NCBI GenBank assembly: GCA_001788295.1
Contig: MGBO01000021.1
Span: forward strand, 212,865-271,631
Direction of reading: 5' to 3'
Source: Candidatus Roizmanbacteria bacterium RIFOXYC1_FULL_41_16
GTDB taxonomy: Bacteria > Patescibacteriota > Microgenomatia > UBA1406
Length of the DNA: 58,767 bases
Shown here: piece after piece, positions 29,251 to 58,767 of the stretch
How positions within the stretch are numbered: position 1 is the stretch's first letter
How the letters are laid out: each line of letters starts with the position of its first letter
The notes under the pieces: model-generated
The model's database searches: none
Seen by the model: the letters and a program-made list of their open reading frames with translations, nothing else
What the model was told of the DNA's origin: nothing
Position numbers and translations under genes: made by a program

Positions 29251-30036
29251 TTATTTTAATTTAGATAAAAAGTCCTTGTCCCGAACATTGGCCTGCTCTT
29301 TTTTGTCCAGACCGCGCTTACCGCTAATCTTTAGTTGTTGCCCGGCCACGGCTTTTTGCTCCACCACTTCCCCATCAAGCATATGAATAAGTTTGTCGCC
29401 GTATTTAAGGTACTCCAGATCATGAGTAACCATAATAATGGTCTTGCCATTTGTCGCTAACTGACGAAACAAATCAATCAATTCCTGGCCGGAAACTGTG
29501 TCCAGATTACCGGTGGGCTCGTCGGCGACGATCAACAACGGATCAAGCGCCAAGGCTCGCGCCAAACTAATCTTTTGCTGCTGCCCGCTGGAAAGCTCCA
29601 TTGGCATATAGTTGGTTTTTTCCTGCATTTGAACAGTAGCCAGTACTTTGCTGATTTTTTCCTTTATTTCGGCCTCGGCCACGTCTTGCAAATACAAGGG
29701 AAAAGCGACATTGCCAAAAACGTCGAGCGAATGAATCCAAAGTGGCTGCTGATAAATCATCCCTACCCGCTCCCGGCGATAAAGAGCGCGATCATCCTCA
29801 TTTCCCTGGTAAAAATCCTTGCCTTCAATCAGAACTTTGCCTTGAGTAGGCGCTTCTAATCCCAGCAAACAGTGTAATAAAGTACTTTTGCCGCAACCTG
29901 AAGGCCCAAAAATAATCACAAATTCACCCTTGTTAATTGTAAAGTCGATTTTTTTTAGAACTTGGACCACGCCCTCCCGAACCGGAAAGCTTTTTTCCAA
30001 GTTTTGGATCGTGATTAAGGCCTGTTGACTACTCAT
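29251..30036 (-). CDS. ABC transporter ATP-binding protein (MacB/LolD/FtsE-like)
   Basis: Walker A GPSGCGKSTLL, signature LSSGQQQKISLARAL, Walker B LIVADEPTGNLD and an H-loop VTHD. The start overlaps the stop of the giant gene (ATGA). Confidence 0.9.
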   Translation of the reverse strand: MSSQQALITIQNLEKSFPVREGVVQVLKKIDFTINKGEFVIIFGPSGCGKSTLLHCLLGLEAPTQGKVLIEGKDFYQGNEDDRALYRRERVGMIYQQPLWIHSLDVFGNVAFPLYLQDVAEAEIKEKISKVLATVQMQEKTNYMPMELSSGQQQKISLARALALDPLLIVADEPTGNLDTVSGQELIDLFRQLATNGKTIIMVTHDLEYLKYGDKLIHMLDGEVVEQKAVAGQQLKISGKRGLDKKEQANVRDKDFLSKLK

Positions 30037-44803: not shown

Positions 44804-45376
44804 ATGAACAATCAGGCATTACCCAAGCTCTTACTATTGATTATGGGTTTGGCGGCTTTTTCAGCAGTGATCGCTTTAACTGGAATTGTTCAGCTTAGTA
44901 GCCTAAACAAGCCGGCTCTTAGCCAGTCCCCGATTAAAATCACCCGAAACCGGGCCCCAGCCAATCCCTTAATTATTGATGTGGAAGGCGCGGTAGAAAA
45001 ACCCGGAGTCTACGAACTAAAAGCCAACAGCCGTTTGCTTGACGCCATTAAAAAAGCCGGCGGCCTCAGTAGCAGTGCTGACAGATATTTGATTGCCAAA
45101 ACCTACAATCTGGCTAAAAAACTAGCGGACGAAGAAAAAGTGTACATGCCATTTTGGGAGGAAAGAGACAGCAATGTCTTAGGAACCTTTACCAGTGATT
45201 TGACTTATATTAATTCTGCCAGCCTTACCCAACTGGAACTGTTGCCTGGAATTGGGCCGGTGCGGGCGCAAAAAATTATCGACAGCCGGCCCTATAGCCA
45301 GCTTGAAGAATTAATCAGCAAAAAGGTGCTGGGAGAGGCAACTTTTGCCAAACTGAGCGGATTAATTGGTTTGTAA
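44804..45376 (+). CDS. comEA: competence protein ComEA (SLBB + helix-hairpin-helix DNA receptor)
   Basis: TM anchor, an SLBB-like segment (IDVEGAVEKPGVYELKANSRLLDAIKKAGG) and an HhH segment (SLTQLELLPGIGPVRAQKIIDSRPY). Confidence 0.85.
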   Translation: MNNQALPKLLLLIMGLAAFSAVIALTGIVQLSSLNKPALSQSPIKITRNRAPANPLIIDVEGAVEKPGVYELKANSRLLDAIKKAGGLSSSADRYLIAKTYNLAKKLADEEKVYMPFWEERDSNVLGTFTSDLTYINSASLTQLELLPGIGPVRAQKIIDSRPYSQLEELISKKVLGEATFAKLSGLIGL

Positions 45377-46165
45377 ATGATCGATTATTTGGTCAGGCCT
45401 TTTTTCCAATATTTACCCACTGATCTGGGGGCAATAGCCGCCGCCATGATTTGGGGCCAAAAGCAATATTTAACCAGCCAACAGTATCAAGTTTGGCAAA
45501 CAACCGGCTTATTGCATCTACTGGTCTTGTCTGGCCAAAACATTACTTTATTGGTCAATTTTCTGCAAATCTTTACCAAACGCTTGGGTCTAAAATGGCA
45601 ATTATTGATTACTATTCTGGTGGCTATATTTTATCTGGTTATTTTTGGAACCGAAGCGCCAATTGTGCGCGCTTCTGTGATGGCTATTTTGAGCTCGCTG
45701 GTTATTTTTGAACAAACCACGACCCCACCTTTATATTTGTTGTTGTTGACTGCTTCTTTAATGGTGATTGTCAAGCCAGAGTGGCTAACCAGCTTGTCTT
45801 TTCAGCTATCGTTTGCTGCCACTTTGGGGATTTTGGTTTTTTATCCGTATTTTCAGGCCAGATTTAAGTTCAAATCGGCACTCTCGAAGATGTTTTTTGT
45901 CTCGCTTTCGGCCCAACTCTTAACCACTCCCCTTTTGCTAGTCACTTTTCGGGAAATCTCAGTTCTGGCTTTATTCATTAATACTCTGGTGGCGTTATTA
46001 GTGGAGCCGATTATGCTGGTAGGCATTATTACCAGTTTGGCCGGCAACTGGATAGACATAATTAATATGGCTTTAAGTCTGATTTTGTTTGGCTTGCTGG
46101 GAATACTGAACTGGCTGGTGAATGTTTGTTACCCGCTAAGTTTATTGATGCAATTGCGGATATGA
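45377..46165 (+). CDS. comEC: ComEC/Rec2 competence channel domain (membrane part only)
   Basis: The polytopic sequence TGLLHLLVLSGQNITLL matches the GxxHLLAISGLH motif of the Competence domain. The stop overlaps the next start (ATGA at 46162..46165). Confidence 0.8.
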   Translation: MIDYLVRPFFQYLPTDLGAIAAAMIWGQKQYLTSQQYQVWQTTGLLHLLVLSGQNITLLVNFLQIFTKRLGLKWQLLITILVAIFYLVIFGTEAPIVRASVMAILSSLVIFEQTTTPPLYLLLLTASLMVIVKPEWLTSLSFQLSFAATLGILVFYPYFQARFKFKSALSKMFFVSLSAQLLTTPLLLVTFREISVLALFINTLVALLVEPIMLVGIITSLAGNWIDIINMALSLILFGLLGILNWLVNVCYPLSLLMQLRI

Positions 46166-47004
46166 GAACAATTTTGATTTTGGTAATCATAGGGGTCGTT
46201 TCGGCTATTTTTGTTCTATCCAGCAATCAGGCCAGGACCGCTACCAGAATCGTTTTTTGCGACGTGGGCCAAGGCGACGCCATTTATTTACGCCTGGATT
46301 CACAAATCGATGTTTTGATTGACAGCGGACCTTATTCTCAAATAATAAGTTGTTTAAACCAAGAGATGCCCTATTTTGACCGCACTATTGAGCTGGCTTT
46401 TCTCACCCATCCGGAAAAAGATCATTTTGGCGGCTTTCCCTATCTTTTGGGCAGCTTCAAAATCCAGGCGCTTTATTTACCCACATCTGTTAGAAATAAT
46501 TTGCCGTCAAACGAGCCTTGGCAACAATTCTGGCAACAGGCAAAAAATAACATTAATGAAATCAATTATCTGTCTCAAGGAGACGAGATCAGTATCGGCA
46601 CAAGTTTGTTTACTATTCTTTGGCCAGAAGCAACGTCGACAGAATCCAAAATCCAGGAATACAATAATTCGGCTTTGGGAATTTTGGCTCAGGTAAAGGA
46701 TAAACAAATTCTGCTGCTGTCGGATATGGACATTGCTCCAGCCGAAAGAGCGATCTCTCAACTCAATCTTAACGTGGATATTTTCAAAATCAATCATCAC
46801 GGCTCAAAATATGGCCTTTCTCAAAAATTATTAAAGTTAGCAGACCCGCAATTGGCAGTGATAAGCGTGGGTAAGCAAAATTGGTACGGCCACCCGCACA
46901 ACGAGGTTATTCAACTATTACAAAGCCTTAACGTTCCCATCAAGCGAACTGATAAAAATGGAAAGATTGTCCTACCGCTCTATTCCATTCCCGATATGGA
47001 TTAG
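46162..47004 (+). CDS. comEC: ComEC C-terminal metallo-beta-lactamase domain as a separate ORF
   Basis: One TM helix followed by VFCDVGQGDAIYL, THPEKDHFGG (HxHxDH-like) and INHHGS. The start was set at the ATG at 46162. Confidence 0.8.
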   Translation: MRTILILVIIGVVSAIFVLSSNQARTATRIVFCDVGQGDAIYLRLDSQIDVLIDSGPYSQIISCLNQEMPYFDRTIELAFLTHPEKDHFGGFPYLLGSFKIQALYLPTSVRNNLPSNEPWQQFWQQAKNNINEINYLSQGDEISIGTSLFTILWPEATSTESKIQEYNNSALGILAQVKDKQILLLSDMDIAPAERAISQLNLNVDIFKINHHGSKYGLSQKLLKLADPQLAVISVGKQNWYGHPHNEVIQLLQSLNVPIKRTDKNGKIVLPLYSIPDMD

Positions 47005-47750
47005 GCGGAGAGGAGGATCCGGCGCATTTCCTGAAAAATATTCCAGGCTTCGGCGCCAATCCAGGTTTGGCCAACTAATTCTTGTGGCAGGCCCGGATCG
47101 GTTTTCAATATTTCAATATATTTATTGACAATTTTTTTGAGCTTTTCCTCACGTGAAAGCGTTTGGTCTGAAAGATACTCGTGCCATTCTTTAAAGATCT
47201 GGCGATACTGTTTCTCTACCTGACTGATATTCCACACCTTTTCAATCAAAATTTTTAAGTCTCCGACTACCGGCTTGCCTTCAAACGCCTGAACATAATC
47301 AGCAAAGGCCGGCTGGGTCTTGACTAGCGCTTGCAAAGCCGCGGCCACCGGATGCGGAGTGAGCCAAAAAGACCGGTGCCAAGGGCCCAAACCCCAGCCA
47401 CTGATTTCCCGGCGCAAACTGTCGCGCAAGGCTCTTTTTTTCTCAGGAATTTCGTAAGTAATAATCCGGTAAAAACCATCCCAGGGAAAAATCGTGAAAC
47501 GCACATACGGAAAAGATAATGACAGCTCAGCCAAACCTTTTTCTGTAATCTGATAGCTGCCAGACTCATGTTTCACAATTACCTCGTCCGCCAACATCTG
47601 GCGAACTGTGCCACGGGAACGCGGTGAATCAGCCGGCAGCGAAAACACAGTTTTGATCTTAGCATTGTAAATCAGATGGGGTTTATCTTTGTCCAGTAAA
47701 TATAAAGTGAGCAAAGTTCTTGTCCGCCGTTCTTTAATTGAAGCTACCAT
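47001..47750 (-). CDS. PaaX-family transcriptional regulator-like protein
   Basis: A winged-helix-like N-terminus is followed by WDGFYRIITYEIPEKKRALRDSLRREISGWGLGPWHRSFWLTPHP. This matches the PaaX pattern W-x-G-x-W-x-[LV]-x-[YF]-S-[IV]-P-E...R-x-x-L-R...GFG...W-[IV]-x-P. Confidence 0.65.
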   Translation of the reverse strand: MVASIKERRTRTLLTLYLLDKDKPHLIYNAKIKTVFSLPADSPRSRGTVRQMLADEVIVKHESGSYQITEKGLAELSLSFPYVRFTIFPWDGFYRIITYEIPEKKRALRDSLRREISGWGLGPWHRSFWLTPHPVAAALQALVKTQPAFADYVQAFEGKPVVGDLKILIEKVWNISQVEKQYRQIFKEWHEYLSDQTLSREEKLKKIVNKYIEILKTDPGLPQELVGQTWIGAEAWNIFQEMRRILLSA

Positions 47751-47838: not shown

Positions 47839-49299
47839 ATGAAAAAGATCTTGAGCTGCCTCCTTATTGGTTTGGTTTTTGGCCAATCTTTATTTTCTTT
47901 TACCTTAATCAAGCCTTTGAGCGTTGACGACGCTGTGATTACGGCGGCCAGCGCGACGCTTTCTAACCCCAGACGTTCCTATTATGCCTCAGTGAGCGGC
48001 CCGCTGGTTGCTAGTACTGCTATTATTCCGATTAAAACCAGCGGCGGCACCGGACCGGAAACAACTGTTGCCGGTTTATTTCCTGGCGACACCGTGGTTA
48101 TCGGACCAAACGGTGACGAAACTGTGGCTTCGATTCCCTCTACCACTGGCTCGAATTTTGTCATTGACGGCGGCCTTAATGTGGGCGCCAGTGACAACAC
48201 TGATATTATTGCCACTCAAAGCGGCACTTTAACTGTGACTTTTACCATTGGTTCGGCGATTCCGGCCAATGGCTATGTGGAACTAGTCATTCCTGATCCG
48301 CCGTCTAACGGTAACGACGGCAAGCCGGATTATAACGCTACCTTGGCCAATCTTGGTTTTGACGCTAATGGCATAGCCAACACCAACACCACCACAAGTG
48401 GCGGCACTGGCTGTACCTGGAGCGGTACCGAAACTTTCACTGCCGGTACTGGTGCCGGCCATACCTATTCTTTTGTAACAACTACTCAATGCACTGCAGG
48501 CACCATTACCATGACTGTGGGTGATGGGACGACTGGCTTAGTGAATCCGGCCAGAGTCGGTGCAATAGGCTCAGCTGATATTTATCAAATGAATATTTAC
48601 ACCAAAACCAGCGGTGGTGTGATAATTGAATCTCGCGATGTGTCGGTAGCCATTGTTGAAGGTGTTTTGGTTTCGGCTAATGTTGACGAAACTTTGTCTT
48701 TTACTGTGGCTGGCCGTGCCTCTGGCACAACCTCCTGCAATATTGCCACTTCAATTACAACTACTGCCACCACAGTTCCCTGGGGCGTGCTCTCAACTAC
48801 TTATGCCGCCGGCACTCATAATGCGGCTCAACAATTAACCTTAAGCACTAATTCTTCCAGCGGCTACAAAGTATATGCTCAAGAAAACGACCAAATGGGC
48901 CTAAACGGCAATACCTGTACTGGAGCGGCTCCAAGCGCTGGCGAGTATACTTTTGTAGCTGGCACTTGCATTCGCGACATTCCCACAGCCACTCATACCA
49001 CTGCTTTTGACTGGGGCACCCCAGGTACTAATTATGGCTTGGGTTATTCTTTGGAAAACGCGACCGGCACGCCAGCCCAATTCCTTTATAACGACAGCGG
49101 TACTTTTTATGCCAAACAGTTTGCCGATAAAGAAGTACCGGAAAGCGAAACCGACGCTGACGCACAATTAATGGTCGAAACTACCGGTCCGGTAGCGGCT
49201 AACAGCGTTTATGTTTGTTTCCGAATCAACATTCCCGGCGACCAACCCTCAGGCTATTATTACAATATTGTTAAGTACACAGCCGTACCGATTTTTTAA
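47839..49299 (+). CDS. secreted Thr/Gly/Ala-rich surface protein with conserved C-terminal ...KYTAVPIF tail
   Basis: Signal peptide and a 486-aa Thr/Gly-rich body. The C-terminal domain (LSFTVAG...TVPWGVLS...SSSGYKVYAQ...) ends PSGYYYNIVKYTAVPIF, paralleling 43321..44073. Confidence 0.6.
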   Translation: MKKILSCLLIGLVFGQSLFSFTLIKPLSVDDAVITAASATLSNPRRSYYASVSGPLVASTAIIPIKTSGGTGPETTVAGLFPGDTVVIGPNGDETVASIPSTTGSNFVIDGGLNVGASDNTDIIATQSGTLTVTFTIGSAIPANGYVELVIPDPPSNGNDGKPDYNATLANLGFDANGIANTNTTTSGGTGCTWSGTETFTAGTGAGHTYSFVTTTQCTAGTITMTVGDGTTGLVNPARVGAIGSADIYQMNIYTKTSGGVIIESRDVSVAIVEGVLVSANVDETLSFTVAGRASGTTSCNIATSITTTATTVPWGVLSTTYAAGTHNAAQQLTLSTNSSSGYKVYAQENDQMGLNGNTCTGAAPSAGEYTFVAGTCIRDIPTATHTTAFDWGTPGTNYGLGYSLENATGTPAQFLYNDSGTFYAKQFADKEVPESETDADAQLMVETTGPVAANSVYVCFRINIPGDQPSGYYYNIVKYTAVPIF

Positions 49300-49301
49300 A
49301 C

Positions 49302-50282
49302 ATGAAAAAAATTATTTATTTTCTTTTAATCACTTCCCTATTCTTAAGCTTGACCGGCTCAGCTTTGGCTCAAGAAAAGTTGCAGATGATTGTGGGTCCG
49401 GTGCGCCAGGAGATCTTCTTAAATCCGGGTGAAAACGATCAGGTGGAAATCCGTTTTTACAATCAATCCGAACGACCGATTACCGGACAACTAACTGCGG
49501 TTGATTTTATTGTGACCAGTTCAGACGGCGCGCCCACTCTTTTGGACGACCCCTCCCAAGCGTCACCCAAATTCTCCGGCACCAGCTGGATCAGCTTGCC
49601 TTACGATCAGATTACCATTGCCGCTACCAACCGCGTTAATGTGCCTGTTTCTATTCAGGTACCGAATAATGCCAAACCAGGCGGCCGCTATGTGGCCATT
49701 TACTTTCAGCCAAACAACAACACACCAACCAGCAGTGGTTCGGGTGTCGCCTCCAGAATTGCCGGTTTACTCTATATCAGAGTCAATGGCGAAATTACTG
49801 AAAACGCCTTGATCACCCGTTTTTACAGCCCGAGCTTTTTTGAATACGGCCCAATCACAGTCAACACTGAGATTCTTAATCGCGGTGACTATCACATTAC
49901 TCCCAAAGCCGTCATTGCCATGAGCAATGCTTTTGGCACGCTCACTGACCAGGTTTCATTAAGAGATGAAAACATTTTTCCAGACGCCACCCGCATCTTT
50001 ACAAATGAGATTGGACCAAAATGGCTTTTTGGCCGCTACAAACTTTCTCTGATGGGATCATATGGCACCAATGGCAAATCACTTGAAGCAACGACCTATG
50101 TGTGGGTGATGCCTTGGCGGATTATTGCCATCGTGATCCTAGGTATTATTTTGATCTATATCTTAATCAAAAAAGTAATTCTCTCTTCTAATGAACAGGT
50201 GTCAGAGCTGGAATCGCGGCTAAGCAAGGAAGAGGAAGAACTTGAAGAACTCAAAAAACTCTTACGCAAAAAGAACGAATAA
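49302..50282 (+). CDS. secreted protein with C-terminal TM anchor and coiled-coil tail; paralogue of 42302..43321
   Basis: Signal peptide (FLSLTGSALAQE), a beta-rich body, a TM helix (IIAIVILGIILIYILI) and a cytoplasmic tail (ELESRLSKEEEELEELKKLLRKK). Confidence 0.6.
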   Translation: MKKIIYFLLITSLFLSLTGSALAQEKLQMIVGPVRQEIFLNPGENDQVEIRFYNQSERPITGQLTAVDFIVTSSDGAPTLLDDPSQASPKFSGTSWISLPYDQITIAATNRVNVPVSIQVPNNAKPGGRYVAIYFQPNNNTPTSSGSGVASRIAGLLYIRVNGEITENALITRFYSPSFFEYGPITVNTEILNRGDYHITPKAVIAMSNAFGTLTDQVSLRDENIFPDATRIFTNEIGPKWLFGRYKLSLMGSYGTNGKSLEATTYVWVMPWRIIAIVILGIILIYILIKKVILSSNEQVSELESRLSKEEEELEELKKLLRKKNE

Positions 50283-50292
50283 GTTTATCCTA

Positions 50293-51420
50293 CTAAACAT
50301 GAGTTGTCTGCAAAAAAGACCAATAGTTTTCTTGATTAATAACTTGAAAACTGGCTTGAGGATAAGTATCTAACCATAGTTTAGGAGGGGTTTTTTGGAA
50401 TTTTTGCCATTTTATTTCATAAGCCCAAAGTTTGCCTTCTTTTTCTTCAAGATAATCTATTTCTTGCTTGGTCCAGGTCCGCCAAAAAAAACTATTGGAA
50501 AATTGTCGCTGCGCCTGATTAAGTTTAATCCTTTCGGCAATGACAAAATTTTCCCATAAAGCCCCGATATCGTTACGTAAATTTAAAGGATTAAAGTTAT
50601 TAATAATGGCATTTCTAATTCCTAAGTCCCAAAAATAGATTTTGCGCGATTTAGAGATCTCTTTGCGTAAATTGCGAGAAAATGGCCGAAGCGTAAAAAT
50701 AACAAAAGATAGTTCGAGCAAACGCAGATAAGTTCTGACAGTTTTTTGATCAATCCCCAGCAAGCTACCTAGCTCAGTATAGGAAACCTGGCTACCAATC
50801 TGTAAAGCCAATGCTTCTAAAAGACGTGGAATGAGCTCGTTATTACGTAAACCTTGATACTCTAAAGCATCTTTATAAAGATAATTTTGATAAAGGTGAC
50901 GTAGGGTTTCCTGAGCTTCTTCAGGCATATTAACTACTTCAGGGTAAGTGCCAAAACGCAGACGAACATGAAGTAAACGCTGAGCGGCTTGCGGCTCCTG
51001 ATGAAGCTCTGATAATAGTAAGGGGGCTAGATAAAATTCCCGAGCTCGTCCTGTTAAAGGTTCTTTGATTTGGTTAGACAGATCAAAAGATGAAGAACCG
51101 GTTGTGATTATTTGCTTACTACTATTATCACTAATTAGTTTTAAGGTTAAGCCAATATTTCTGACTCTTTGTGCCTCATCAATAATCACTAGGGTTTTAT
51201 TACCTAAATAATTAATTAGTTCGGTTGAGGTTTTATTAGTTAAGGCCTGCCGGACATCAGGTTCATCACAATTTAAATATACACTCTGTTGAGGAACTTC
51301 TGACATAATTTTTTTTACTAAAGTAGTTTTACCAACTCGACGAGCCCCATAAATAATAATTATCCTGTTTTTGAATAACTGTTTTTTGATTTCTGGTTCG
51401 ATTATTCGTGAATAATACAT
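50293..51420 (-). CDS. AAA+ ATPase with DUF4143-type C-terminal domain
   Basis: Walker A IIIYGARRVGKTTL and Walker B LVIIDEAQRV. A winged-helix-like middle region and a C-terminal segment typical of the AAA_14/DUF4143 family follow. Confidence 0.75.
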   Translation of the reverse strand: MYYSRIIEPEIKKQLFKNRIIIIYGARRVGKTTLVKKIMSEVPQQSVYLNCDEPDVRQALTNKTSTELINYLGNKTLVIIDEAQRVRNIGLTLKLISDNSSKQIITTGSSSFDLSNQIKEPLTGRAREFYLAPLLLSELHQEPQAAQRLLHVRLRFGTYPEVVNMPEEAQETLRHLYQNYLYKDALEYQGLRNNELIPRLLEALALQIGSQVSYTELGSLLGIDQKTVRTYLRLLELSFVIFTLRPFSRNLRKEISKSRKIYFWDLGIRNAIINNFNPLNLRNDIGALWENFVIAERIKLNQAQRQFSNSFFWRTWTKQEIDYLEEKEGKLWAYEIKWQKFQKTPPKLWLDTYPQASFQVINQENYWSFLQTTHV

Positions 51421-51502
51421 AGTTTTCAGGAACTTATTCCTCTAAATTAATATAATTTGCAGGAATTGTCAAGTTCATTTAAATCATATATACTTAATTA
51501 TT

Positions 51503-53032
51503 ATGCGCAGAACGCAATTTTCTCTCTTTTGTTTGTTTTTGTTATTGGGACTGATGGTAACGCCGAGAATTCTCAAGCCAGAACAGCCTAAGCCGGCAGT
51601 ACTGGCCGACGTGACTAACTCTGCGACTGTGGTTACCCCAACCCCCACGCCAGTGGTTACCAGCACCCCAACCCCGACGCCAACTTCGACTCTGACGCCC
51701 ACTACCACCCTGACGCCCACGCCAACCACAGTACTCTCTAATCTGGAATTATCTTTTGTTGTCAACCCGCCCTTAAACGGCTCATATTATGTCGCAGACG
51801 AAATTATCACCATTACTATTATTTATCGCTCTTTAACACCAATTTCACAACCGTTGACTCTGTCGCTTAATTATCCCTTGGGCCGGATCAATGACTCGCC
51901 CCTTGACCTGATTGAAGCTCTAAGCTATATCAGTGGCTCAGCGAGCACCAGCCCTCAAGGAGCCACGCCCAGTATTAATTTAAACAGTCATCTCATTACT
52001 TGGAACATCGCTTCTCTAGCAAGCGCCAGCAGCCCCAGCCAAGTCAGTCTGAAACTACGAGTACTGGAAAACACGGCAATTACTGATCCAGTGCTTAATG
52101 ACCTGATTTTGTCCAGCGTTTTTGGCACTACTAAGTTGCCAGATCAAAAAACCACCCTTAATCTTTATGGTTCATTTGTTGCCCAGGTTTCCCCGACTCC
52201 GGCAATACCACCAACACCCAAGCCGGCTGAGGAACCCGAACAGTTTTTTGTGTATTCTTTGTTTGGCTATACCTCAAGCCATGCCAACGTGCGCTTAGAA
52301 GGGCTTAAGTTACTGGAAGGCACCAAAGCTAACCAAGATGGTTATTTTGAGTTTGTTAATTTCAGAGCTTCCAGCCGCAATCTGGAGTTTTGTCTGCTGA
52401 GCGTTGACACCGAAAACCTGGTGTCACCGCCTCTTTGTGTTCCGGTGCCACCGGTTGAGGCTAACCGCAAATACGGACCCTATTTGTTGCCACCGACAAT
52501 CAGATTGGATAAGGGCGATATTAAGACCGGGCAGCAAGCCCAAGTGAACGGCAAAACCATTCCCGGAGCGAGCGTGAATCTTAACGTCTTTGATCAAGCA
52601 GAAAAGCCTTTGGCTATTTTAATTAAAACAGCCTATGCCGCCACCAAACCCGAAGTGATTAAGCTTGATTCGGCTTCAGACGGCAGCTTTAGTACCACTC
52701 TAAGCGGCACTAACCCAGGTAAAAAGCGCGTTTTTGCTCAATCAACTTTTAATATTGAAGAAAATGAGAACAAAACTCCCAAAAGCGTGACTCTGACGCT
52801 CAACATCCTTAGCCTATTCTTGGCCTTATTAATCCAATTTTTGGGCTTATTCCGGTCTTTGTTTAGTCTTAACTTTATTCTGTTTTTGCAGTTTTTACTC
52901 GTCCTTTATCTCTTGCTGAGACGGCGCCTGATCTTTAACTGGCTAAGCCTGATGCACCACAAACGGACTGCCATTATCCTTTACCGGCAAAACAGTATTG
53001 TGAAAGCAGAAAAGAATTACTGCCCGCTTTAA
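51503..53032 (+). CDS. secreted protein with Thr/Pro-rich linker and C-terminal TM region
   Basis: Signal peptide, then the PTPTPVVTSTPTPTPTSTLTPTTTLTPTPTT linker, a beta-rich body and C-terminal hydrophobic helices (LSLFLALLIQFLGLF, ILFLQFLLVLYLLL). Confidence 0.6.
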   Translation: MRRTQFSLFCLFLLLGLMVTPRILKPEQPKPAVLADVTNSATVVTPTPTPVVTSTPTPTPTSTLTPTTTLTPTPTTVLSNLELSFVVNPPLNGSYYVADEIITITIIYRSLTPISQPLTLSLNYPLGRINDSPLDLIEALSYISGSASTSPQGATPSINLNSHLITWNIASLASASSPSQVSLKLRVLENTAITDPVLNDLILSSVFGTTKLPDQKTTLNLYGSFVAQVSPTPAIPPTPKPAEEPEQFFVYSLFGYTSSHANVRLEGLKLLEGTKANQDGYFEFVNFRASSRNLEFCLLSVDTENLVSPPLCVPVPPVEANRKYGPYLLPPTIRLDKGDIKTGQQAQVNGKTIPGASVNLNVFDQAEKPLAILIKTAYAATKPEVIKLDSASDGSFSTTLSGTNPGKKRVFAQSTFNIEENENKTPKSVTLTLNILSLFLALLIQFLGLFRSLFSLNFILFLQFLLVLYLLLRRRLIFNWLSLMHHKRTAIILYRQNSIVKAEKNYCPL

Positions 53033-53436
53033 TTGAATTTGATTTTTAGAGCCTGGCCAAGCTTAGTATTGTCCAGTACCGCCTCAATGACGTACTCGCC
53101 CGAAGTGGTGGTTGAAAGATCAAAGATGGCCCGACCATAAGAGTCTGTCAGTGAATTAAGCTGCTCAATGACTAATTCCGGCGACTTGCTAAGCATTACC
53201 GGCTGATTGGCCACTCCCAAACCCTGATTATTGAGCACAAAGACTGTAATTCGGATCCTGTCGATGCTATTAGCCCTGGCCACAATTGGCGAAGCAAAAA
53301 GATATGAGTTTTCGGCTGAATAATTACCGCTGCCTGTCGCTCGACTTGAAATAATCAGCCTGACATTGGCAAAGACGCTCATCAACAATAACATTACTAA
53401 TAAAACTGCCAAAGCCGGAAAAAGACGCTTATTCAT
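53029..53436 (-). CDS. small secreted protein with bacterial Ig-like (Big_1-like) domain
   Basis: Signal peptide (FPALAVLLVMLLLMSVFA) followed by IRITVFVLNNQGLGVANQPVMLS...DSYGRAIFDLSTTTSGEYVIEAVL, an invasin/intimin-type Ig pattern. Confidence 0.5.
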   Translation of the reverse strand: MNKRLFPALAVLLVMLLLMSVFANVRLIISSRATGSGNYSAENSYLFASPIVARANSIDRIRITVFVLNNQGLGVANQPVMLSKSPELVIEQLNSLTDSYGRAIFDLSTTTSGEYVIEAVLDNTKLGQALKIKFN

Positions 53437-53877
53437 AGCTTAATTATAGTAAACTGACAAATCTAGTCAAGTAGGGCCAAACACTAGGACAAGCGTAGTA
53501 TATCCATATCCTGGCACTAGTGGTAGCCTGGTGCTAATAAGCCTAAGAAATTAACCTGAAACTATAAAAAAATATACGCTTACTAACAAATACATCACTA
53601 TAAGATAATAAATTAGGATTGGATTGCCAAGACAATCCAGCGTCTTACTATAGGCATTCTTATTAATCTTCTCGTTCTATAGGATATCCAGTATTTTGGT
53701 AAGGGCAAAAAACATTATAAAGAATATATTATAGGTCTTGATACAGTTATATGCGCTTTAAATGAACCATTTTTTCCTGCGGTAATATGTATAAATCTAT
53801 GTAAAACGTATTACAGGATAGTAGTTGATGTTTTTTGATAATGTATCTAAGTATATCAGTATATATTAAAATGCCTC

Positions 53878-53906
53878 TTGACAAATATCTCTTCTCTATT
53901 AATAAT
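53878..53906 (+). promoter_or_regulatory. sigma70-like promoter, leaderless geometry
   Basis: TTGACA (53878..53883), a 17-nt spacer, AATAAT (53901..53906), 6 nt, then ATG at 53913. It shares the 15-mer cttgacaaatatctc with the promoter at 47801. Confidence 0.4.
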
Positions 53907-53912
53907 GTATAT

Positions 53913-54404
53913 ATGTTAAATACTGATCATAATACTGCCAGTTATCAAGCCAAATTCGCCGATTTCCTATTGACCAAAAAGTATGGTAGTTTGTCTGTGA
54001 AAAGTTATCTGGCGGATTTGGAACATTACTTAGATTGGGCTGCTACAAAGATTAAACGAGCTAATAGCAAATTAAGCAACCATAACTCTTTAACAACCTT
54101 TTTCAGCTCTAGGGCCTTAGAACAATATCTTTTGGAAATTCAAGGCTCGGAGAGTCCTTCGGCGATTAAGCGAAGATTAGCAGCGCTTTCTAGCTTTCTA
54201 AAATACGCGTGTGCAGAAAAATGGCTTAATAGCAGCCTATTGAACGTATTTAAGACTTTAGCAGAGACTACTCACCAAGCGCTAAAAACCACTGATCAGG
54301 TACTGTCTGATTTTACTTTGCATCTACAGGAGAAGCAAACTCCCAAAAACAGCTTGCGTAGCTATGTGGCTGACATTAAAGAGTTTTTAACCATTACAAA
54401 TTAA
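53913..54404 (+). CDS. protein made only of tyrosine-recombinase N-terminal (SAM-like/core-binding) motifs; no catalytic domain
   Basis: Three helical motifs of the integrase core-binding type: FADFLLTKKYGSLSVKSYLADLEHYLDWA, SPSAIKRRLAALSSFLKYACAEKWL and LQEKQTPKNSLRSYVADIKEFL. The start was set at 53913 behind the promoter; the track gives 53835. Confidence 0.55.
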   Translation: MLNTDHNTASYQAKFADFLLTKKYGSLSVKSYLADLEHYLDWAATKIKRANSKLSNHNSLTTFFSSRALEQYLLEIQGSESPSAIKRRLAALSSFLKYACAEKWLNSSLLNVFKTLAETTHQALKTTDQVLSDFTLHLQEKQTPKNSLRSYVADIKEFLTITN

Positions 54405-54615
54405 TTGCTTGATATGAAACTTATCTACAACCTTTGGAAGCAACTAGACCCCTCAAGCCAAGGAAGCGCTTATCTGCCCATGCCCAAGGAAAGACTGCCA
54501 AAACTGGATTCTTTTATCAGCTTTAGGCTGAGGAGCAAGTGGGCGTTTCGCAAATATTGATTGATTAATCACTCCGACGCCGGCACATAAGCCTGGTCGG
54601 AGAAATTAGCCAACC

Positions 54616-57600
54616 ATGAGCAAACAAAGCCATTTTTTCTCGACCAAGAACCTAAATACATATCGAAATTCTTTAAAGAATAAGGGCTATTCTGTAGCCA
54701 CAATCAAGCGAAAAATTGCGTCCGTACTTAAATTTGCTAATTGGGCTTACGAAACAGGCCGAATCCACCATAATCAGCTTCAGGAAATCCGGAAAATCTT
54801 GGCTTCTAAAACAGGCTCTAATCGCCCAAATAAAACACGAAATTGGGCACAATTGTTATCATTTGGCAAGCTGGTATCTCCCAGCCGCCTGATCAATTTG
54901 CTTGGCTTATTGCTTTTGCTGGCTTTTGCTGTCGGGGCCGGTATTGGTATTTATAACCAATTTTTTAGTCGGGCGCAGATCAACCTGGCCGCTCAACCCG
55001 GCCCGGTGCGTGCCGGCCGGATCATTAACTTTCAGGGTTTTCTCACTGACAGCAACGGCACACCGATTGTAAGCTCGATCAACATGCGATATCGGCTCTA
55101 CAACGCTGCATCTGGCGGTGATGTTTTGTACGATACCAGCACCTGTTCTGTGGAACCGGACAACGATGGCATCGTAAATGTTTTGATTGGCACTAACTCT
55201 CCTACCGGTGGTGCCTGCTGGGATGGCAATGAAATTCCGGCTGAAGTTTTCTCCATGAACCCTAACGTTTATCTTGGTGTGACAGTGGGAACAGATCCGG
55301 AGATGACTGACAGACAGCAAATTGCTAATGTGGGTTATGCTATCAATGCGGAGCTTTTGCAGGGCTACCCACTAGGGACAGGATCAGCTTCAGTGCCATT
55401 TATCAATGGCGATGGTGATCTGCTAATTGGGGCCGCTACCCCTAGTGTGAGCTCGATCAATACCAGCGCTAACTTCCGACTCTCAAGCGCCAACGCCATC
55501 ACGATCGTTTCGGCTGGTTCTGGCGACCTGGTTTTACAAGCGACTGAAAGCGGCGCTATTAATCTGCGAACCGGAGGCGAAACCGATGCCAATTCTCGGC
55601 TCTATATTGCCAATAACGGCAATGTGGGGATTGGCACAACCACCCCAAGTAGCAAACTTGATGTCGACGGGGCAGTGACTATGACCGGCTTTAAGCTGAC
55701 TACTTCTCCAAGTGCCGGCTATGTCTTAAGCTCAGATGCCAATGGTGTGGGAACCTGGGCGGATGTTTCCTCCACCGCCGGCCCGTGGACTTTGTCCGGC
55801 AGCAATCTCTACCCCGACTCCACCAGCTACAACGTCGGCATTGGCACCACGGCACCAAGTAGTAAATTACATCTGAATGGTGGCACTGGTAGTATAAGTA
55901 CTGGAATTGTCTTTGGTGACGCTGATACTGGTATATTTGAAAGTTCTGACGATAATCTATATATTCAGGCCGCCTCCAGTGGTTCAATCCAGCTCCGAAC
56001 TACTGGTAACGCTTGGGTAGCTTTTGCCGAAGGTGGCCACACAAGTTATAAACCATTCAGAGTAGATAGTACTTTTACAGTTACCGGCGGTGGCCCTCAT
56101 TATTTTAGCACTGGCAACGTTGGCATTGGAACTACAAGTCCAGGCGCAAAATTACATATCTCAGGAGGCGGTATGCTGTTAGATAATAGCTACTACGTTT
56201 ATGGAAAAGATACCGGTGGAACAACAAGAACATTAATCGGAGTAGATGGAAATAATTTTACCAGAGTTGGTAGTACCGGACTAAGCGACCTGTACTTGGA
56301 TGTTGGAGGAGTAAGTGCTTTAATTGCAAAAACCACAACTGGCGATATTGGAATTGGAGACAATAGTCCCGATGCAAGATTGGAAGTTTCGGCAAATGGT
56401 GGCGCCACTGACTTATTTAAGCTCTCAAGTGATGACAGCAATGACGGTAACTTGTTTATTGTTAACAACAGCGGCAATGTGGGGATTGGCACAACCACCC
56501 CAAGTAGCAAGCTTGATGTCGACGGGACAGTGACTATGACCGGCTTTAAGCTGACTACTTCTCCAAGTGCCGGCTACGTGCTTAGCTCAGACGCTAACGG
56601 CGTGGGTACCTGGACCGATGTCTCCTCTACCGCCGGCCCCTGGACTTTATCCGGCTCCAACCTCTACCCCGACTCCACCAGCTACAATGTTGGTATTGGC
56701 ACAACCGCTCCAAGCTCGACTTTAGAAGTAGTGACGTCTGGCGCAGGCACAGGTTCGATAAAATTACGATCTTCTGTATACGGAGGCTATATTGATACAA
56801 CAACCGGTAGTTCTACTGGTCACTTGTATTTAATGCCTGTAAGTCGAACAGTATATTTGGGAGATAACTCCTCAAATGACTATTCGCTAGGTATTTATGG
56901 TACTTCTGGCAATACTGTAATGCTACGTGCTAACGGTGCCAGTTTTTTAAATGGCGGCAACGTGGGTATCGGCACCACGGTGCCTGCATACAAACTCCAA
57001 GTTGCTGGAGATTTTAGAGCCGGATTAACCTCTACTAATCGATATGTTACCATCGGTTCTTCTGGAGTACTAACCAGCCGCTATGACGACGACGGCACTG
57101 AAAATGTTTTAATCGCTGAAAACAGAGGTTATTCAGTGGGCAACGAAGCTGTTGCTCTACTTTTTAATATGTCGACCCAAGGCGACTATACAGCCTTAGG
57201 CGCTGGCCAAATTATTGTGGCAAAAGAACAAGCTTGGACATCGGCTGGCACACAGGATTCAAGTATGTCGTTTTTAACAAGACTGGATGGAACACTGGCT
57301 GAAAAAATGAGAATTGCGTCTAACGGCAATGTGGGGATTGGCACCACTGCCCCAGCTGAAAAGCTGGATGTAGCGGGCAACGTGCAATTTAGTGGCGCCC
57401 TCATGCCCAACGGCAGTGCCGGAACCAGTGGCTATATGCTGCAATCCGCCGGCGCCGGCGCTCCCCCCACCTGGACTGATGTTTCCTCCACTGCCGGCCC
57501 CTGGACTTTGTCCGGCTCTAACCTCTACCCCGACTCCACCACCTACAATGTGGGGATTGGGACAACGGCTCCAAATCAACAGTTAGAAATTACAAAAAAC

Positions 57601-58767
57601 TTTAGATTACCTAGTACTACCTACAATAGTGGAAATCCATATGGAGTAATCTATAAAGATGGGAATAGCTTCCTCCATGATTTTAATCATGGCTACAATG
57701 GAACTGTTACCACAAGTGGTGGTAATACATTTTTAGGTATCGGGGCCGGTAACTTTACCATGGGGTCTACGGCCACCAACACCGCTCATGGCTCATACAA
57801 TACTGCTGTGGGTTATCAAGTTCTTCAAGCTAACACTACCGGCTTTTATAACAGTGCCCTTGGTTACCAAGCTCTCTTTTCCAACACCAATGGAACTCAA
57901 AGTACTGCCATAGGGTGGAAAGCACTCTATAATAACACCACTGGTGGAACTAACAGTGCGCTGGGCTCGGAAGCTCTCGTTGCCAACACCACCGGATACG
58001 ATAATGTTGCTGTGGGTTATCGTTCACTCTTTGCAAACACCGAGGGACGCAGTAATATCGCCGTAGGTCAGCAAGCTCTCGTTGCCAACACCACCGGAAT
58101 CTATAACACTGCCGTAGGTTCTCTAGCCCTCTCTAGTATCACCACTGCTAACAGTAATACTGCAGTAGGTTTTTATGCAGGCAAATTTATTTCCGGTGGC
58201 GTTACCGCCAATCAAACCTCAAGCAGTTCTCTCTATTTAGGATATGATACCCGAGCTTTAGCCAATGGTGACACTAATGAAACCGTCATTGGTTATAACG
58301 CAACTGGTATTGGTAGTAATACTGTAACTTTGGGAAATGACTCGGTTATCAAAACAGCATTGAAAGGCAATGTGGGGATTGGCACCACGGCTCCAACCGA
58401 GAAACTAGATGTAGCGGGCAACGTGCAATTTAGTGGCGCCCTCATGCCCAACGGCAGTGCCGGAACGAGTGGCTATATGTTGCAATCCGCCGGCGCAGGC
58501 GCTCCCCCAACTTGGACCGATGTCTCCTCCACCGCCGGCCCCTGGACTTTGGCTGGGAGCAATCTTTACCCGGATTCCACAAGTTACAACGTGGGGATTG
58601 GAACAACTGCACCAATTACTTGGTTGCATACTAGTAATTCCGGCTTAACTGCCAAAGGCAAAGCTCTGGCAATATTTGATCAATACGAAAACCAACCAAT
58701 ATTAGTAGCCTCAGCCAGCGGTTCAACCAAGTTTATGGTTGATTACAACGGCAACGTGGGGATTGGA
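54616..58767 (+). CDS. giant membrane-anchored repetitive fibre protein, 5' part (at least 1384 aa, open at the window end): SAM-like N-domain + TM helix + tail-fibre/adhesin-like repeats
   Basis: Absent from the ORF track because it has no stop. I read 1384 sense codons from the ATG at 54616 to the last base of the window. The N-terminus is LNTYRNSLKNKGYSVATIKRKIASVLKFANWAYETG. The TM helix is LINLLGLLLLLAFAVGAGIGIY. At least 11 copies of the motif GNVGIGTTxPxxKL[DHEQ]V follow. A block of NT-rich 14-15-aa repeats is also present (NTAVGYQVLQANTTGFYNSALGYQALFSNTNG...). Confidence 0.8.
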   Translation, partial: MSKQSHFFSTKNLNTYRNSLKNKGYSVATIKRKIASVLKFANWAYETGRIHHNQLQEIRKILASKTGSNRPNKTRNWAQLLSFGKLVSPSRLINLLGLLLLLAFAVGAGIGIYNQFFSRAQINLAAQPGPVRAGRIINFQGFLTDSNGTPIVSSINMRYRLYNAASGGDVLYDTSTCSVEPDNDGIVNVLIGTNSPTGGACWDGNEIPAEVFSMNPNVYLGVTVGTDPEMTDRQQIANVGYAINAELLQGYPLGTGSASVPFINGDGDLLIGAATPSVSSINTSANFRLSSANAITIVSAGSGDLVLQATESGAINLRTGGETDANSRLYIANNGNVGIGTTTPSSKLDVDGAVTMTGFKLTTSPSAGYVLSSDANGVGTWADVSSTAGPWTLSGSNLYPDSTSYNVGIGTTAPSSKLHLNGGTGSISTGIVFGDADTGIFESSDDNLYIQAASSGSIQLRTTGNAWVAFAEGGHTSYKPFRVDSTFTVTGGGPHYFSTGNVGIGTTSPGAKLHISGGGMLLDNSYYVYGKDTGGTTRTLIGVDGNNFTRVGSTGLSDLYLDVGGVSALIAKTTTGDIGIGDNSPDARLEVSANGGATDLFKLSSDDSNDGNLFIVNNSGNVGIGTTTPSSKLDVDGTVTMTGFKLTTSPSAGYVLSSDANGVGTWTDVSSTAGPWTLSGSNLYPDSTSYNVGIGTTAPSSTLEVVTSGAGTGSIKLRSSVYGGYIDTTTGSSTGHLYLMPVSRTVYLGDNSSNDYSLGIYGTSGNTVMLRANGASFLNGGNVGIGTTVPAYKLQVAGDFRAGLTSTNRYVTIGSSGVLTSRYDDDGTENVLIAENRGYSVGNEAVALLFNMSTQGDYTALGAGQIIVAKEQAWTSAGTQDSSMSFLTRLDGTLAEKMRIASNGNVGIGTTAPAEKLDVAGNVQFSGALMPNGSAGTSGYMLQSAGAGAPPTWTDVSSTAGPWTLSGSNLYPDSTTYNVGIGTTAPNQQLEITKNFRLPSTTYNSGNPYGVIYKDGNSFLHDFNHGYNGTVTTSGGNTFLGIGAGNFTMGSTATNTAHGSYNTAVGYQVLQANTTGFYNSALGYQALFSNTNGTQSTAIGWKALYNNTTGGTNSALGSEALVANTTGYDNVAVGYRSLFANTEGRSNIAVGQQALVANTTGIYNTAVGSLALSSITTANSNTAVGFYAGKFISGGVTANQTSSSSLYLGYDTRALANGDTNETVIGYNATGIGSNTVTLGNDSVIKTALKGNVGIGTTAPTEKLDVAGNVQFSGALMPNGSAGTSGYMLQSAGAGAPPTWTDVSSTAGPWTLAGSNLYPDSTSYNVGIGTTAPITWLHTSNSGLTAKGKALAIFDQYENQPILVASASGSTKFMVDYNGNVGIG
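55618..55860 (+). repeat. fibre module type A, copy 1 (243 nt)
   Basis: Encodes GNVGIGTTTPSSKLDVDGAVTMTGFKLTTSPSAGYVLSSDANGVGTWADVSSTAGPWTLSGSNLYPDSTSYNVGIGTTAPS. It is near-identical to 56473..56715, and the first 100 nt or so differ at only 2 positions. Confidence 0.85.
56473..56715 (+). repeat. fibre module type A, copy 2
   Basis: Direct repeat of 55618..55860, offset by 855 nt and in frame. The differences are mostly synonymous third-position changes. Confidence 0.85.
57325..57573 (+). repeat. fibre module type B, copy 1 (249 nt)
   Basis: Encodes GNVGIGTTAPAEKLDVAGNVQFSGALMPNGSAGTSGYMLQSAGAGAPPTWTDVSSTAGPWTLSGSNLYPDSTTYNVGIGTTAP. It repeats at 58366..58614. Confidence 0.85.
58366..58614 (+). 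repeat. fibre module type B, copy 2
   Basis: Direct repeat of 57325..57573, offset by 1041 nt and in frame. Confidence 0.85.

What the first reader, a model, noticed from the sequence alone, without database searches (positions are those of the whole stretch)
54616..58767. Unannotated giant ORF: integrase-type SAM-like domain + TM helix + repetitive fibre of more than 1250 aa, still open at the window edge
The supplied ORF track shows only eight short minus-strand ORFs here. The plus frame starting at the ATG at 54616 is open for all 4152 nt to the last base of the window (my manual translation found no stop).

Domain order:
- Residues 10-65 or so: a SAM-like core-binding motif (LNTYRNSLKNKGYSVATIKRKIASVLKFANWAYETGRI).
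- Residues 95-117 or so: one TM helix (LINLLGLLLLLAFAVGAGIGIY).
- An Ig-like start (RIINFQGFLTDSNGTPIVSSINMRYRLYNAASGGDVLYD).
- At least 11 copies of the tail-fibre-type motif GNVGIGTTxPxxKLxV, separating varied modules.
- A run of about 17 NT-rich 14-15-aa repeats (NTAVGYQVLQANTTGFYNSALGYQALFSNTNGTQSTAIGWKALYNNTTGG...), as seen in phage tail fibres and trimeric adhesin heads.

A cytoplasmic recombinase-type DNA/protein-binding domain covalently tethered through the membrane to a huge extracellular fibre is an architecture I cannot match to any described system. With the upstream SAM-only protein it forms a two-gene locus. This is my best candidate for something new in this window.
Basis: partly seen in the sequence, partly recalled or inferred. 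Interest (0 to 1): 0.85.

Follow-up and report, generated by a model that had tools for sequence, protein, structure and literature searches.

The report
Membrane-anchored giant fibre with split integrase-like domain
This is the first third of a real gene of at least 4,153 codons from an ultra-small (CPR/Microgenomates) bacterium; it encodes a phage-tail-fibre-like surface fibre held in the membrane by one helix, and its short cytoplasmic head is half of an integrase-type DNA-binding domain whose other half is encoded by the neighbouring small gene.

Summary
The ORF is real. It is open from ATG 54616 to the window edge (1384 codons). In identical public contigs it continues to at least 2940 aa, and one gene call reaches 4153 aa and still hits a contig end.

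Domain order:
- a basic cytoplasmic head
- one TM helix
- a conserved beta-sandwich
- a mosaic fibre with 12 xNVGIGT motifs and eight 17-aa repeats

The fibre is homologous to Bdellovibrio MAT fibres and phage tail fibres. The closest complete homologue carries a Peptidase_S74 chaperone and an orphan conserved C-terminal domain.

The "SAM-like domain" is only half a domain (Pfam positions 43-81 of 83). The tail of the upstream small protein supplies positions 3-32. Joined in silico, they give one full-length, above-threshold PF02899 hit. Two Gottesmanbacteria genomes encode the same parts as a single ORF. A third form has one intact SAM-like domain and no upstream gene.

The architecture occurs in at least 106 species-level genomes, within a conserved surface-protein cluster. 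I found no published description.

Most likely it is an N-in/C-out adhesive surface fibre with a new cytoplasmic, recombinase-derived module of unknown role.

Verdict: a new variant of a known kind, of moderately high interest.

The parts
53835..54404 (+). Small SAM-only protein: 189 aa from TTG 53835, or 163 aa from ATG 53913 as called in NCBI. It is the partner of the giant protein.
   Evidence: PF02899 E 9e-9. Homologues lie directly upstream on the same strand only in loci whose giant ORF starts with the half SAM domain (form A), and in none of the 22 loci with an intact SAM domain (form B).
53955..54221 (+). Complete SAM-like (core-binding-like) domain 1 of the small protein, residues 41-129.
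   Evidence: PF02899 positions 4-83 of 83. XerC/XerD N-terminal matches.
54285..54389 (+). First half (helices 1-2) of SAM-like domain 2, at the C-terminal tail of the small protein.
   Evidence: Alone it matches PF02899 positions 3-32 at 15.2 bits. Joined to the giant protein's head it gives a full-length hit of 36.9 bits.
54405..54615 (.). 211-nt spacer that splits the domain. It holds a 51-codon ORF and an inverted repeat (54558-54578 / 54596-54616) that covers the GGAG upstream of the ATG.
   Evidence: Sequence. Repeats. No Rfam match. Fold z-score -1.9. The median spacer across 36 loci is 204 nt, with variable frame offsets.
54616..58767 (+). 5' part (1384 codons) of the giant fibre gene, which is at least 4153 codons long.
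54637..54753 (+). Second half (helices 3-4) of SAM-like domain 2, in the cytoplasmic head of the giant protein (residues 8-46). A third helix follows at residues 52-63.
   Evidence: PF02899 positions 43-81. AF2 helices 10-63 have pLDDT above 90. A profile of the half-SAM (form A) heads hits the integrase N-terminal domain 2key_A at E 0.02.
54880..54966 (+). Single transmembrane helix acting as a signal anchor, with the conserved GAGIYNQFF end motif.
   Evidence: It is the only Kyte-Doolittle segment above 1.6. Residues 1-92 hold 18 K/R against 2 D/E. AF2 helix 89-117. The segment is conserved across homologues.
54967..55605 (+). Conserved juxtamembrane ectodomain. It contains a beta-sandwich (nt 55024-55290) that holds the only two cysteines (C177, C201).
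   Evidence: 44-77% identity to 106 relatives. AF2 strands 137-225 have pLDDT 74-83. Cysteine positions.
55606..58767 (+). Mosaic fibre shaft: varied modules separated by 12 xNVGIGTTxPxxKL cap-like motifs. Near-identical DNA repeats lie at 55611-55859 / 56466-56714 and at 57307-57574 / 58348-58615.
   Evidence: PDB hits to MAT fibres 8ol4, 8ond and 8oml at E about 2e-6 to 5e-6. PHROG tail-fibre and virion-protein hits down to 7e-33.
57799..58206 (+). Eight tandem 17-aa repeats, N(T/S)A(V/L/I)GxxALxxNTTGxx.
   Evidence: Covered by PHROG tail-spike and virion structural hits at residues 1027-1235.
47839..53436 (.). Conserved accessory surface-protein cluster: secreted 486-aa protein, WxLIP_PGBD-like 326-aa protein with a C-terminal TM, 509-aa secreted protein with a C-terminal TM, and a Big_1 135-aa protein on the minus strand. 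An AAA_14/DUF4143 gene is inserted here only in this lineage.
   Evidence: Pfam. The same order and strands occur in 53-66 of 80 related loci.

Best explanation
The ORF is the start of a gene for a very long cell-surface fibre of a CPR bacterium (Microgenomates, related to Roizmanbacteria).

Topology (inferred from sequence): residues 1-88 stay in the cytoplasm, one helix (about 89-117) spans the membrane, and everything downstream is exported.

Outside the cell (inferred from homology): after a conserved disulfide-capable beta-sandwich comes a mosaic shaft that probably forms a trimer. The shaft is homologous to phage tail fibres and to the Bdellovibrio mosaic adhesive trimer (MAT) proteins. 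In complete relatives it ends with a Peptidase_S74-type folding chaperone (in some) and a conserved orphan C-terminal domain (in all). The likely job is to reach and bind another cell or surface, as expected for an episymbiotic ultra-small bacterium. The near-identical repeats allow module shuffling.

Inside the cell (shown by sequence analysis): the head carries helices 3-4 of an integrase-type SAM-like/core-binding fold, and helices 1-2 are supplied by the C-terminal tail of the upstream small protein.

Docking (inferred): the small protein docks non-covalently on the base of the fibre by completing the split domain. This places its own intact SAM-like domain at the membrane.

What this cytoplasmic module binds (DNA, or an assembly or secretion partner) is unknown.
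For: Gene reality and size.

Topology:
- One hydrophobic segment, a head with net charge about +16, and an acidic G/T/S/N-rich remainder.
- AF2 predicts a TM helix and a beta-sandwich.
- The only two cysteines sit in the sandwich.

Fibre homology:
- PDB MAT structures and PHROG tail fibre families.
- Hundreds of relatives named 'tail fiber domain-containing' or carrying PF13884.
- The MAT definition in PMC10769870.
- S74 in the closest complete homologue L010 (77% identity over the aligned TM and juxtamembrane ectodomain segment) and in L034.
- A shared C-terminal domain ending in FNWLIIN.

Split domain:
- The halves score 15.2 bits (profile positions 3-32) and 19.1 bits (positions 43-81). Joined, they score 36.9 bits over positions 3-81 of 83.
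- The window's pair is collinear with single ORFs in two Gottesmanbacteria genomes, which carry a full PF02899 at the same place.
- The upstream gene is present in the half-SAM (form A) loci and absent from all 22 loci with an intact SAM domain.
- The tail of the upstream protein scores above 5 bits against an independent intact-SAM (form B) HMM in 21 of 35 loci.
- Foldseek on the joined model recovers XerA, lambda Int core-binding and 3nrw domains (target TM-score 0.74-0.78, probability about 1).

Family breadth: 106 relatives among 185,579 species genomes, and 444 clusters at 50% identity, with lengths up to 7448 aa.

Conserved synteny.
Against: - The 3' end of this particular gene was not recovered, so its tip and any S74 domain are inferred from homologues.
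- Trimerisation, surface exposure and adhesion are inferred from homology only.
- Foldseek E-values for the core-binding matches are weak (0.09-1.2), and the output does not say which SAM-like copy aligned.
- The joined model was a single-sequence AF2 run (mean pLDDT 62.6).
- Proteins with an intact SAM domain (form B) manage without a small partner, so docking cannot be the universal purpose of the module.
- Most complete relatives lack a detectable S74 in their last 750 aa.
- No host, expression or localisation data exist.
Confidence: 0.64

Rival explanations
1. Transmembrane signalling device. The fibre is a contact sensor, and the cytoplasmic SAM-like module is a DNA-binding output. It would act either tethered at the membrane like ToxR/CadC, or through the small protein being held and released like a sigma factor on an RsgI-type anti-sigma. 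This can coexist with an adhesive role.
For: - The layout is cytoplasmic domain, single TM, then ectodomain.
- The fold is the DNA-binding core-binding domain of tyrosine recombinases and keeps the conserved basic RRLS..RKF helix.
- The head is very basic.
- The module is conserved across all three gene arrangements.
- The TM sequence itself is highly conserved, more than a passive anchor would need.
Against: - No DNA target was identified. The repeats in the divergent promoter region are short and unremarkable.
- The small protein is only mildly basic (20 K/R against 15 D/E).
- No protease or release site is known.
- Ectodomains of thousands of residues are unusual for sensors.
- Nothing here tests DNA binding.
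Confidence: 0.17
2. Structural envelope component rather than an adhesin. The fibres would form a spacer, sheath or glycocalyx-like coat together with the WxLIP-like, Big_1 and other secreted proteins of the cluster.
For: - The gene is clustered with wall-associated-type proteins, including a WxLIP peptidoglycan-binding domain above threshold.
- The C-terminal domain is conserved rather than variable across the family.
Against: - The characterised homologues (MAT proteins, tail fibres) are recognition or adhesion devices.
- The middle modules are extremely variable between species, and apparently between strains. This fits recognition better than scaffolding.
Confidence: 0.12
3. The two ORFs are expressed as one protein through an intron, translational bypass or frameshift across the roughly 200-nt spacer.
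For: - The break falls exactly in the loop between helices 2 and 3 of a domain.
- Fused versions exist in Gottesmanbacteria.
- The spacer length is fairly constant, with a median of 204 nt.
Against: - The frame offset between the two ORFs varies (13, 17 and 6 of 36 loci for offsets 0, 1 and 2).
- The giant ORF has its own ATG in 32 of 36 loci.
- The spacer has no Rfam intron match and only marginal fold stability.
- Stops occur in every frame of the spacer.
Confidence: 0.04
4. Prophage or tailocin tail-fibre gene, or a decayed integrase remnant fused by chance to a fibre gene.
For: PHROG tail-fibre hits and an integrase-type domain.
Against: - No phage genes lie nearby.
- The locus is syntenic with ComEA/ComEC/PaaX and surface-protein genes across 46-66 of 80 loci from different species, including a closed chromosome.
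- The TM anchor is conserved.
- Neither protein has a recombinase catalytic domain.
- The architecture is kept in more than 100 species.
Confidence: 0.03

Closest known systems
Bdellovibrio bacteriovorus mosaic adhesive trimer (MAT) fibres (Bd2133, Bd3182 and others; PDB 8ol4, 8ond, 8oml; Caulton et al. 2024, PMC10769870)
   Same: - Direct sequence matches to the solved shafts.
- Mosaic modules separated by a recurring loop motif.
- Both S74 and non-S74 subtypes exist among relatives.
- A cell-encoded (not phage) surface fibre in a bacterium that lives on other bacteria.
   Different: - MAT proteins have a cleavable signal peptide and an invariant N-terminal domain thought to bind a surface element.
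- Here there is a cytoplasmic SAM-like head and a TM anchor.
- This protein is 3-7 times longer.
- It has a distinct conserved C-terminal domain and sits in a monoderm CPR envelope.
Phage tail fibres and spikes with a C-terminal Peptidase_S74 intramolecular chaperone (K1F endosialidase, T5 L-shaped fibre pb1)
   Same: PHROG tail-fibre homology of the shaft. An S74 domain is present in the closest complete homologue.
   Different: - It is not part of a virion and is anchored in the cell membrane.
- S74, where present, is followed by another roughly 400 aa rather than being terminal.
N-terminal SAM-like / core-binding domain of tyrosine recombinases (XerC/XerD, XerA, lambda Int; Pfam PF02899, PF13102)
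   Same: A four-helix fold and sequence signature, including the RRLS..R.F helix.
   Different: - No catalytic domain anywhere in the locus.
- The domain is tethered to a membrane helix.
- In most species it is split between two polypeptides.
Bitopic membrane regulators (ToxR/CadC; RsgI anti-sigma factors with extracellular carbohydrate-binding modules)
   Same: The logic of a cytoplasmic nucleic-acid or regulator-binding head, one TM helix, and an extracellular binding domain.
   Different: - An unrelated head fold.
- An ectodomain larger by orders of magnitude.
- No evidence of regulation.
WxL / WxL-interacting-protein surface complexes of Firmicutes
   Same: A neighbouring gene carries a WxLIP peptidoglycan-binding domain and a C-terminal TM, within a conserved cluster of secreted proteins.
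   Different: No WxL domain was detected. The link to the fibre is by synteny only.

Membership tests
MAT / tail-fibre-like trimeric surface fibres | Sequence homology of the shaft to solved MAT or tail-fibre structures | tested here: met
   8ol4_A, 8ond_A and 8oml_A at E 2e-6 to 5e-6. PHROG tail-fibre families at E 1e-13 to 5e-18, and virion structural proteins down to 7e-33.
MAT / tail-fibre-like trimeric surface fibres | Recurrent capping-loop motif between mosaic modules | tested here: inconclusive
   There are 12 xNVGIGT motifs in 1384 aa and 26 in 2940 aa. I could not compare them residue by residue with the published MAT consensus, which is in a figure only.
MAT / tail-fibre-like trimeric surface fibres | C-terminal S74 chaperone or an alternative adhesive tip | not testable with these tools
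   The 3' end of this gene was not recovered. The closest complete homologue L010, and L034, have PF13884 at E 2e-12 to 2e-13. Six other complete homologues show none in their last 750 aa.
MAT / tail-fibre-like trimeric surface fibres | Cleavable signal peptide plus the invariant MAT N-terminal domain | tested here: not met
   A 92-residue basic helical head precedes the only hydrophobic segment. The N-terminus is SAM-like instead.
MAT / tail-fibre-like trimeric surface fibres | Trimeric assembly and exposure on the cell surface | not testable with these tools
   Only monomer AF2 was available, and the shaft start (residues 227-345) has pLDDT below 50.
Tyrosine recombinase / phage integrase | N-terminal SAM-like core-binding domain | tested here: met
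   The small protein scores E 9e-9. The joined halves score 36.9 bits over the full length. An intact-SAM (form B) profile hits 2key_A at E 7e-5.
Tyrosine recombinase / phage integrase | C-terminal catalytic domain with the R-K-H-R-H/W-Y active site | tested here: not met
   There is no PF00589 hit. XerC/XerD models align only at positions 3-99 of about 295. The 211-nt spacer cannot encode a catalytic domain.
Trimeric autotransporter adhesins (YadA type) | YadA head / Hep_Hag / stalk repeats and a C-terminal beta-barrel anchor | tested here: not met
   No such Pfam hits at E up to 1 in the 1384 aa, or at E up to 0.1 in the next 1556 aa. The C-termini of complete homologues match no known family.
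ToxR-like bitopic transcription regulators | Cytoplasmic DNA-binding domain, single TM, extracytoplasmic domain | tested here: met
   The topology and domain order fit.
ToxR-like bitopic transcription regulators | OmpR-type winged-helix DNA-binding domain and demonstrated promoter binding | tested here: not met
   The head is SAM-like, not winged-helix. DNA binding cannot be tested here.

The most novel reading that the evidence does not exclude
The fibre and the small protein form a new kind of outside-in signalling or coupling system. A recombinase-derived DNA-binding domain is physically split between a soluble protein and the cytoplasmic base of a micrometre-scale surface fibre. Contact or tension at the fibre would then control whether the DNA-binding module is assembled at the membrane or released to the chromosome. 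In effect, an ultra-small epibiont would link host capture directly to gene expression or DNA handling (the locus lies next to ComEA/ComEC).
Probability: 0.15. Interest if true: 0.85.

Novelty: new variant of a known kind. Interest (0 to 1): 0.62.

Why it matters
How CPR/Patescibacteria find and hold their hosts is largely unknown outside the Saccharibacteria. This family gives Microgenomates a concrete candidate: a giant, modular, tail-fibre-like surface protein that is conserved in over a hundred species and sits in a conserved surface-protein cluster.

The cytoplasmic module is the unusual part. It is a recombinase core-binding fold with no recombinase, tethered to the membrane, and found in split, single and double-fused gene arrangements. 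That is a clean natural fission/fusion series and predicts a testable protein-protein interaction.

The case also shows why such genes are missed. They break assemblies at near-identical repeats, and ORF listings drop them at contig edges.

Tried and rejected
Attempts to recover the 3' end of this gene failed:
- An exact 59-nt pattern from the distal end found nothing in metagenome contigs.
- A homologue search with residues 2441-2940 returned only proteins shorter than 900 aa from other species.
- The representative library holds only truncated copies of this protein (P0163-P0165).

Other searches that gave nothing:
- Alignment A1 was too gappy for the search for related loci. It was replaced by A2.
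- Foldseek with the 345-aa multi-domain model gave no significant match.
- The orphan C-terminal domain has no match in Pfam, PDB or PHROGs, and only unnamed fragment relatives.
- The spacer has no Rfam family and only marginal folding.
- A protein self-BLAST for module mapping returned nothing usable. Motif counts and DNA repeats were used instead.

Considered and rejected:
- The weak Pfam LT-IIB hits (15-18 bits, below threshold, no stretch passing on its own) were treated as chance.
- An alternative genetic code or readthrough at the upstream stop was rejected. The stop is TAA, and the frame offsets between the two ORFs vary across species.

Full report
**Observation**

Translating window 54616-58767 on the + strand gives 1384 codons with no stop. 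The ORF tool does not list frames that run off the source.

The same locus was found in six public assemblies by looking up the neighbouring Big_1 gene. NCBI MGBS01000002.1 (L001) and a JGI contig (L002) are identical to the window over all 4152 nt, and the frame stays open for 2940 codons. The JGI gene call is 4153 aa and still ends at the contig end. So the window holds at most the first third of a real gene.

I could not recover the 3' end.

**Anatomy of the window part**

- Residues 1-92 are strongly basic (18 K/R against 2 D/E).
- The only hydrophobic segment is centred on residue 101.
- The rest is acidic and rich in G, T, S and N.
- AlphaFold2 with 19 homologues gives confident helices at residues 10-63 (pLDDT above 90), a long helix at 89-117, and a beta-sandwich at 137-225 (pLDDT 74-83). 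The start of the shaft is not modelled as a monomer.
- The only two cysteines (177, 201) lie in the sandwich. This fits an extracytoplasmic location.
- There are 12 xNVGIGT motifs in the window part and 26 in the first 2940 aa.
- The NT-rich run is eight clear 17-aa repeats at residues 1062-1197, not about 17 shorter ones.
- Two pairs of 250-270-nt DNA repeats at 85-89% identity explain why assemblies break here.

**The fibre**

- The sequence matches solved Bdellovibrio MAT fibre proteins (8ol4, 8ond, 8oml; E 2e-6 to 5e-6). It also matches many PHROG tail-fibre, tail-spike and virion structural families.
- Caulton et al. (PMC10769870) define MAT proteins as surface-exposed, mosaic, trimeric fibres. 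They have S74 or non-S74 tips and an invariant N-terminal domain.
- A search with distal modules returns hundreds of relatives in Patescibacteria, Omnitrophica, DPANN archaea and others. Many carry PF13884 or are named "tail fiber domain-containing protein".
- Among complete relatives (1235-3259 aa), the closest is L010 (77% identity over the aligned TM and juxtamembrane ectodomain segment). L010 and L034 have Peptidase_S74 about 400-570 aa before the end.
- Nearly all complete relatives end in a conserved domain of about 250 aa finishing in FNWLIIN. This domain matches nothing in Pfam, PDB or PHROGs, and its only relatives are unnamed fragments.

**The N-terminal module**

- On its own, the giant protein matches only positions 43-81 of the 83-position PF02899 model (19.1 bits, below threshold).
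- The last 45 residues of the upstream small protein match positions 3-32 (15.2 bits).
- Joined in silico, they give a single hit over positions 3-81 at 36.9 bits, E 4.5e-9.
- The small protein also has a complete SAM-like domain further upstream (E 9e-9).
- The window's small protein plus the giant head align collinearly with single ORFs in two Gottesmanbacteria genomes (L085, L086). Those ORFs have a full PF02899 at the equivalent place, followed by the TM helix.

Across 80 related loci there are three arrangements:
- Form A: the giant ORF starts with a half SAM domain.
- Form B: the giant ORF starts with one intact SAM domain (PF02899 E 6e-12; the profile hits integrase N-domain 2key_A at E 7e-5).
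- The double-fused form, in Gottesmanbacteria.

A homologue of the small gene lies directly upstream on the same strand in form A loci, and in none of the 22 form B loci. The tail of the small protein scores against an independent form B HMM in 21 of 35 loci.

An AF2 model of the joined sequence (single sequence, mean pLDDT 62.6, with 70-87 over the reconstituted domain) retrieves XerA, Brujita and lambda integrase core-binding domains. The isolated domains 2oxo and 3nrw give target TM-scores of 0.74-0.78, although the E-values are weak.

There is no recombinase catalytic domain anywhere in the locus.

Expression as one polypeptide is unlikely:
- The upstream stop is TAA.
- Frame offsets between the two ORFs vary across species.
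- The giant ORF has its own ATG in 32 of 36 loci.
- The spacer has no Rfam match.

**Distribution and context**

- The TM plus ectodomain signature finds 106 relatives among 185,579 species genomes. Where the record titles are credible, almost all are Microgenomates: Roizman-, Gottesman- and Woesebacteria, and WWE3.
- The N-terminal module alone defines 444 clusters at 50% identity. Lengths reach 7448 aa. A single TM helix typically follows one to several SAM-like units, and many proteins end in FNWLIIN even when the middle is different.
- The neighbourhood is conserved in 46-66 of 80 loci, in this order: ComEA, ComEC, metallo-beta-lactamase, PaaX-like, secreted 486-aa protein, WxLIP_PGBD-like protein, secreted 509-aa protein, Big_1 (opposite strand), small SAM gene, fibre gene.
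- This rules out a prophage origin.
- Literature searches found nothing that describes the architecture.

**Interpretation**

The best-supported reading is an N-in/C-out, membrane-anchored fibre that probably forms a trimer. It belongs to the tail-fibre/MAT kind and is used for contact with other cells or surfaces. It has a new cytoplasmic, recombinase-derived module that is completed in trans by the neighbouring gene in most species.

What is shown and what is inferred:
- Gene reality, domain order, the split domain and the conservation are shown by computation.
- Topology is a strong inference.
- Trimerisation, adhesion and physical docking of the small protein are inferences from homology and from the fission/fusion pattern.
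- The function of the SAM-like module is open.

A ToxR- or RsgI-like signalling role is the most interesting possibility that the evidence does not exclude. It is weakened because form B proteins have no soluble partner, and no DNA target was found.

I rate this a new variant of a known kind, with moderately high interest.

Noticed in passing
window 30033-37184 (-): A second giant gene of 2383 aa, with many Kelch repeats, fn3 domains and purple-acid-phosphatase-N-like Ig domains. Probably another surface protein.
   Followed up: no
window 49302-50282 (+), with 47839-49299 and 51503-53032: A 326-aa protein with a WxLIP peptidoglycan-binding domain (28.7 bits against a 27.3-bit threshold) and a C-terminal TM, flanked by two secreted proteins with no family match. 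The trio is syntenic with the fibre gene in 53-66 of 80 loci. It may be a wall-associated platform for the fibre.
   Followed up: partly
window 50293-51420 (-): An AAA_14/DUF4143 ATPase gene sits inside the conserved surface cluster. A homologue is found in only 2 of 80 related loci, so it is probably a lineage-specific insertion.
   Followed up: partly
window 44804-47750: ComEA, a ComEC 'Competence' domain protein, a separate metallo-beta-lactamase protein (an apparently split ComEC) and a PaaX-like regulator are conserved just upstream of the surface cluster in 46-50 loci.
   Followed up: partly
window 54558-54616: An inverted repeat (arms of 21 nt, 76% complementary, core CTCCGAC/GTCGGAG, arms 17 nt apart) overlaps the GGAG just upstream of the giant gene's ATG. 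It could mask the ribosome-binding site. The 51-codon ORF in the spacer is weakly conserved in L010 (E 4e-6).
   Followed up: partly
L003 and L004 compared with window 54616-57348: Two other assemblies encode a protein identical to the window's up to residue 911. They then switch to a different module order, exactly at a GNVGIGTT motif. This is either strain-level module shuffling or an assembly chimera at a repeat.
   Followed up: partly
L042 (JBBTSR010000005.1), end of the homologous ORF near 13162: This homologue ends in a Hint/intein-like sequence (CVTGDTLL...HPYLV) instead of the usual C-terminal domain.
   Followed up: no
L010, L013, L015 and many others; L024; L028: Many contigs that carry this Microgenomates-type locus are titled 'uncultured Gammaproteobacteria', 'Micrarchaeia archaeon' or 'Melioribacter roseus'. 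These look like mislabelled or mis-binned records.
   Followed up: no
L009 / L052 (LBPR01000003.1) 6001-11055: In Roizmanbacteria GW2011_GWC2_34_23 the homologue is called as three overlapping genes (315, 437 and 953 aa), and the SAM region upstream is uncalled. These are likely frameshifts or assembly errors in a repeat-rich gene.
   Followed up: no
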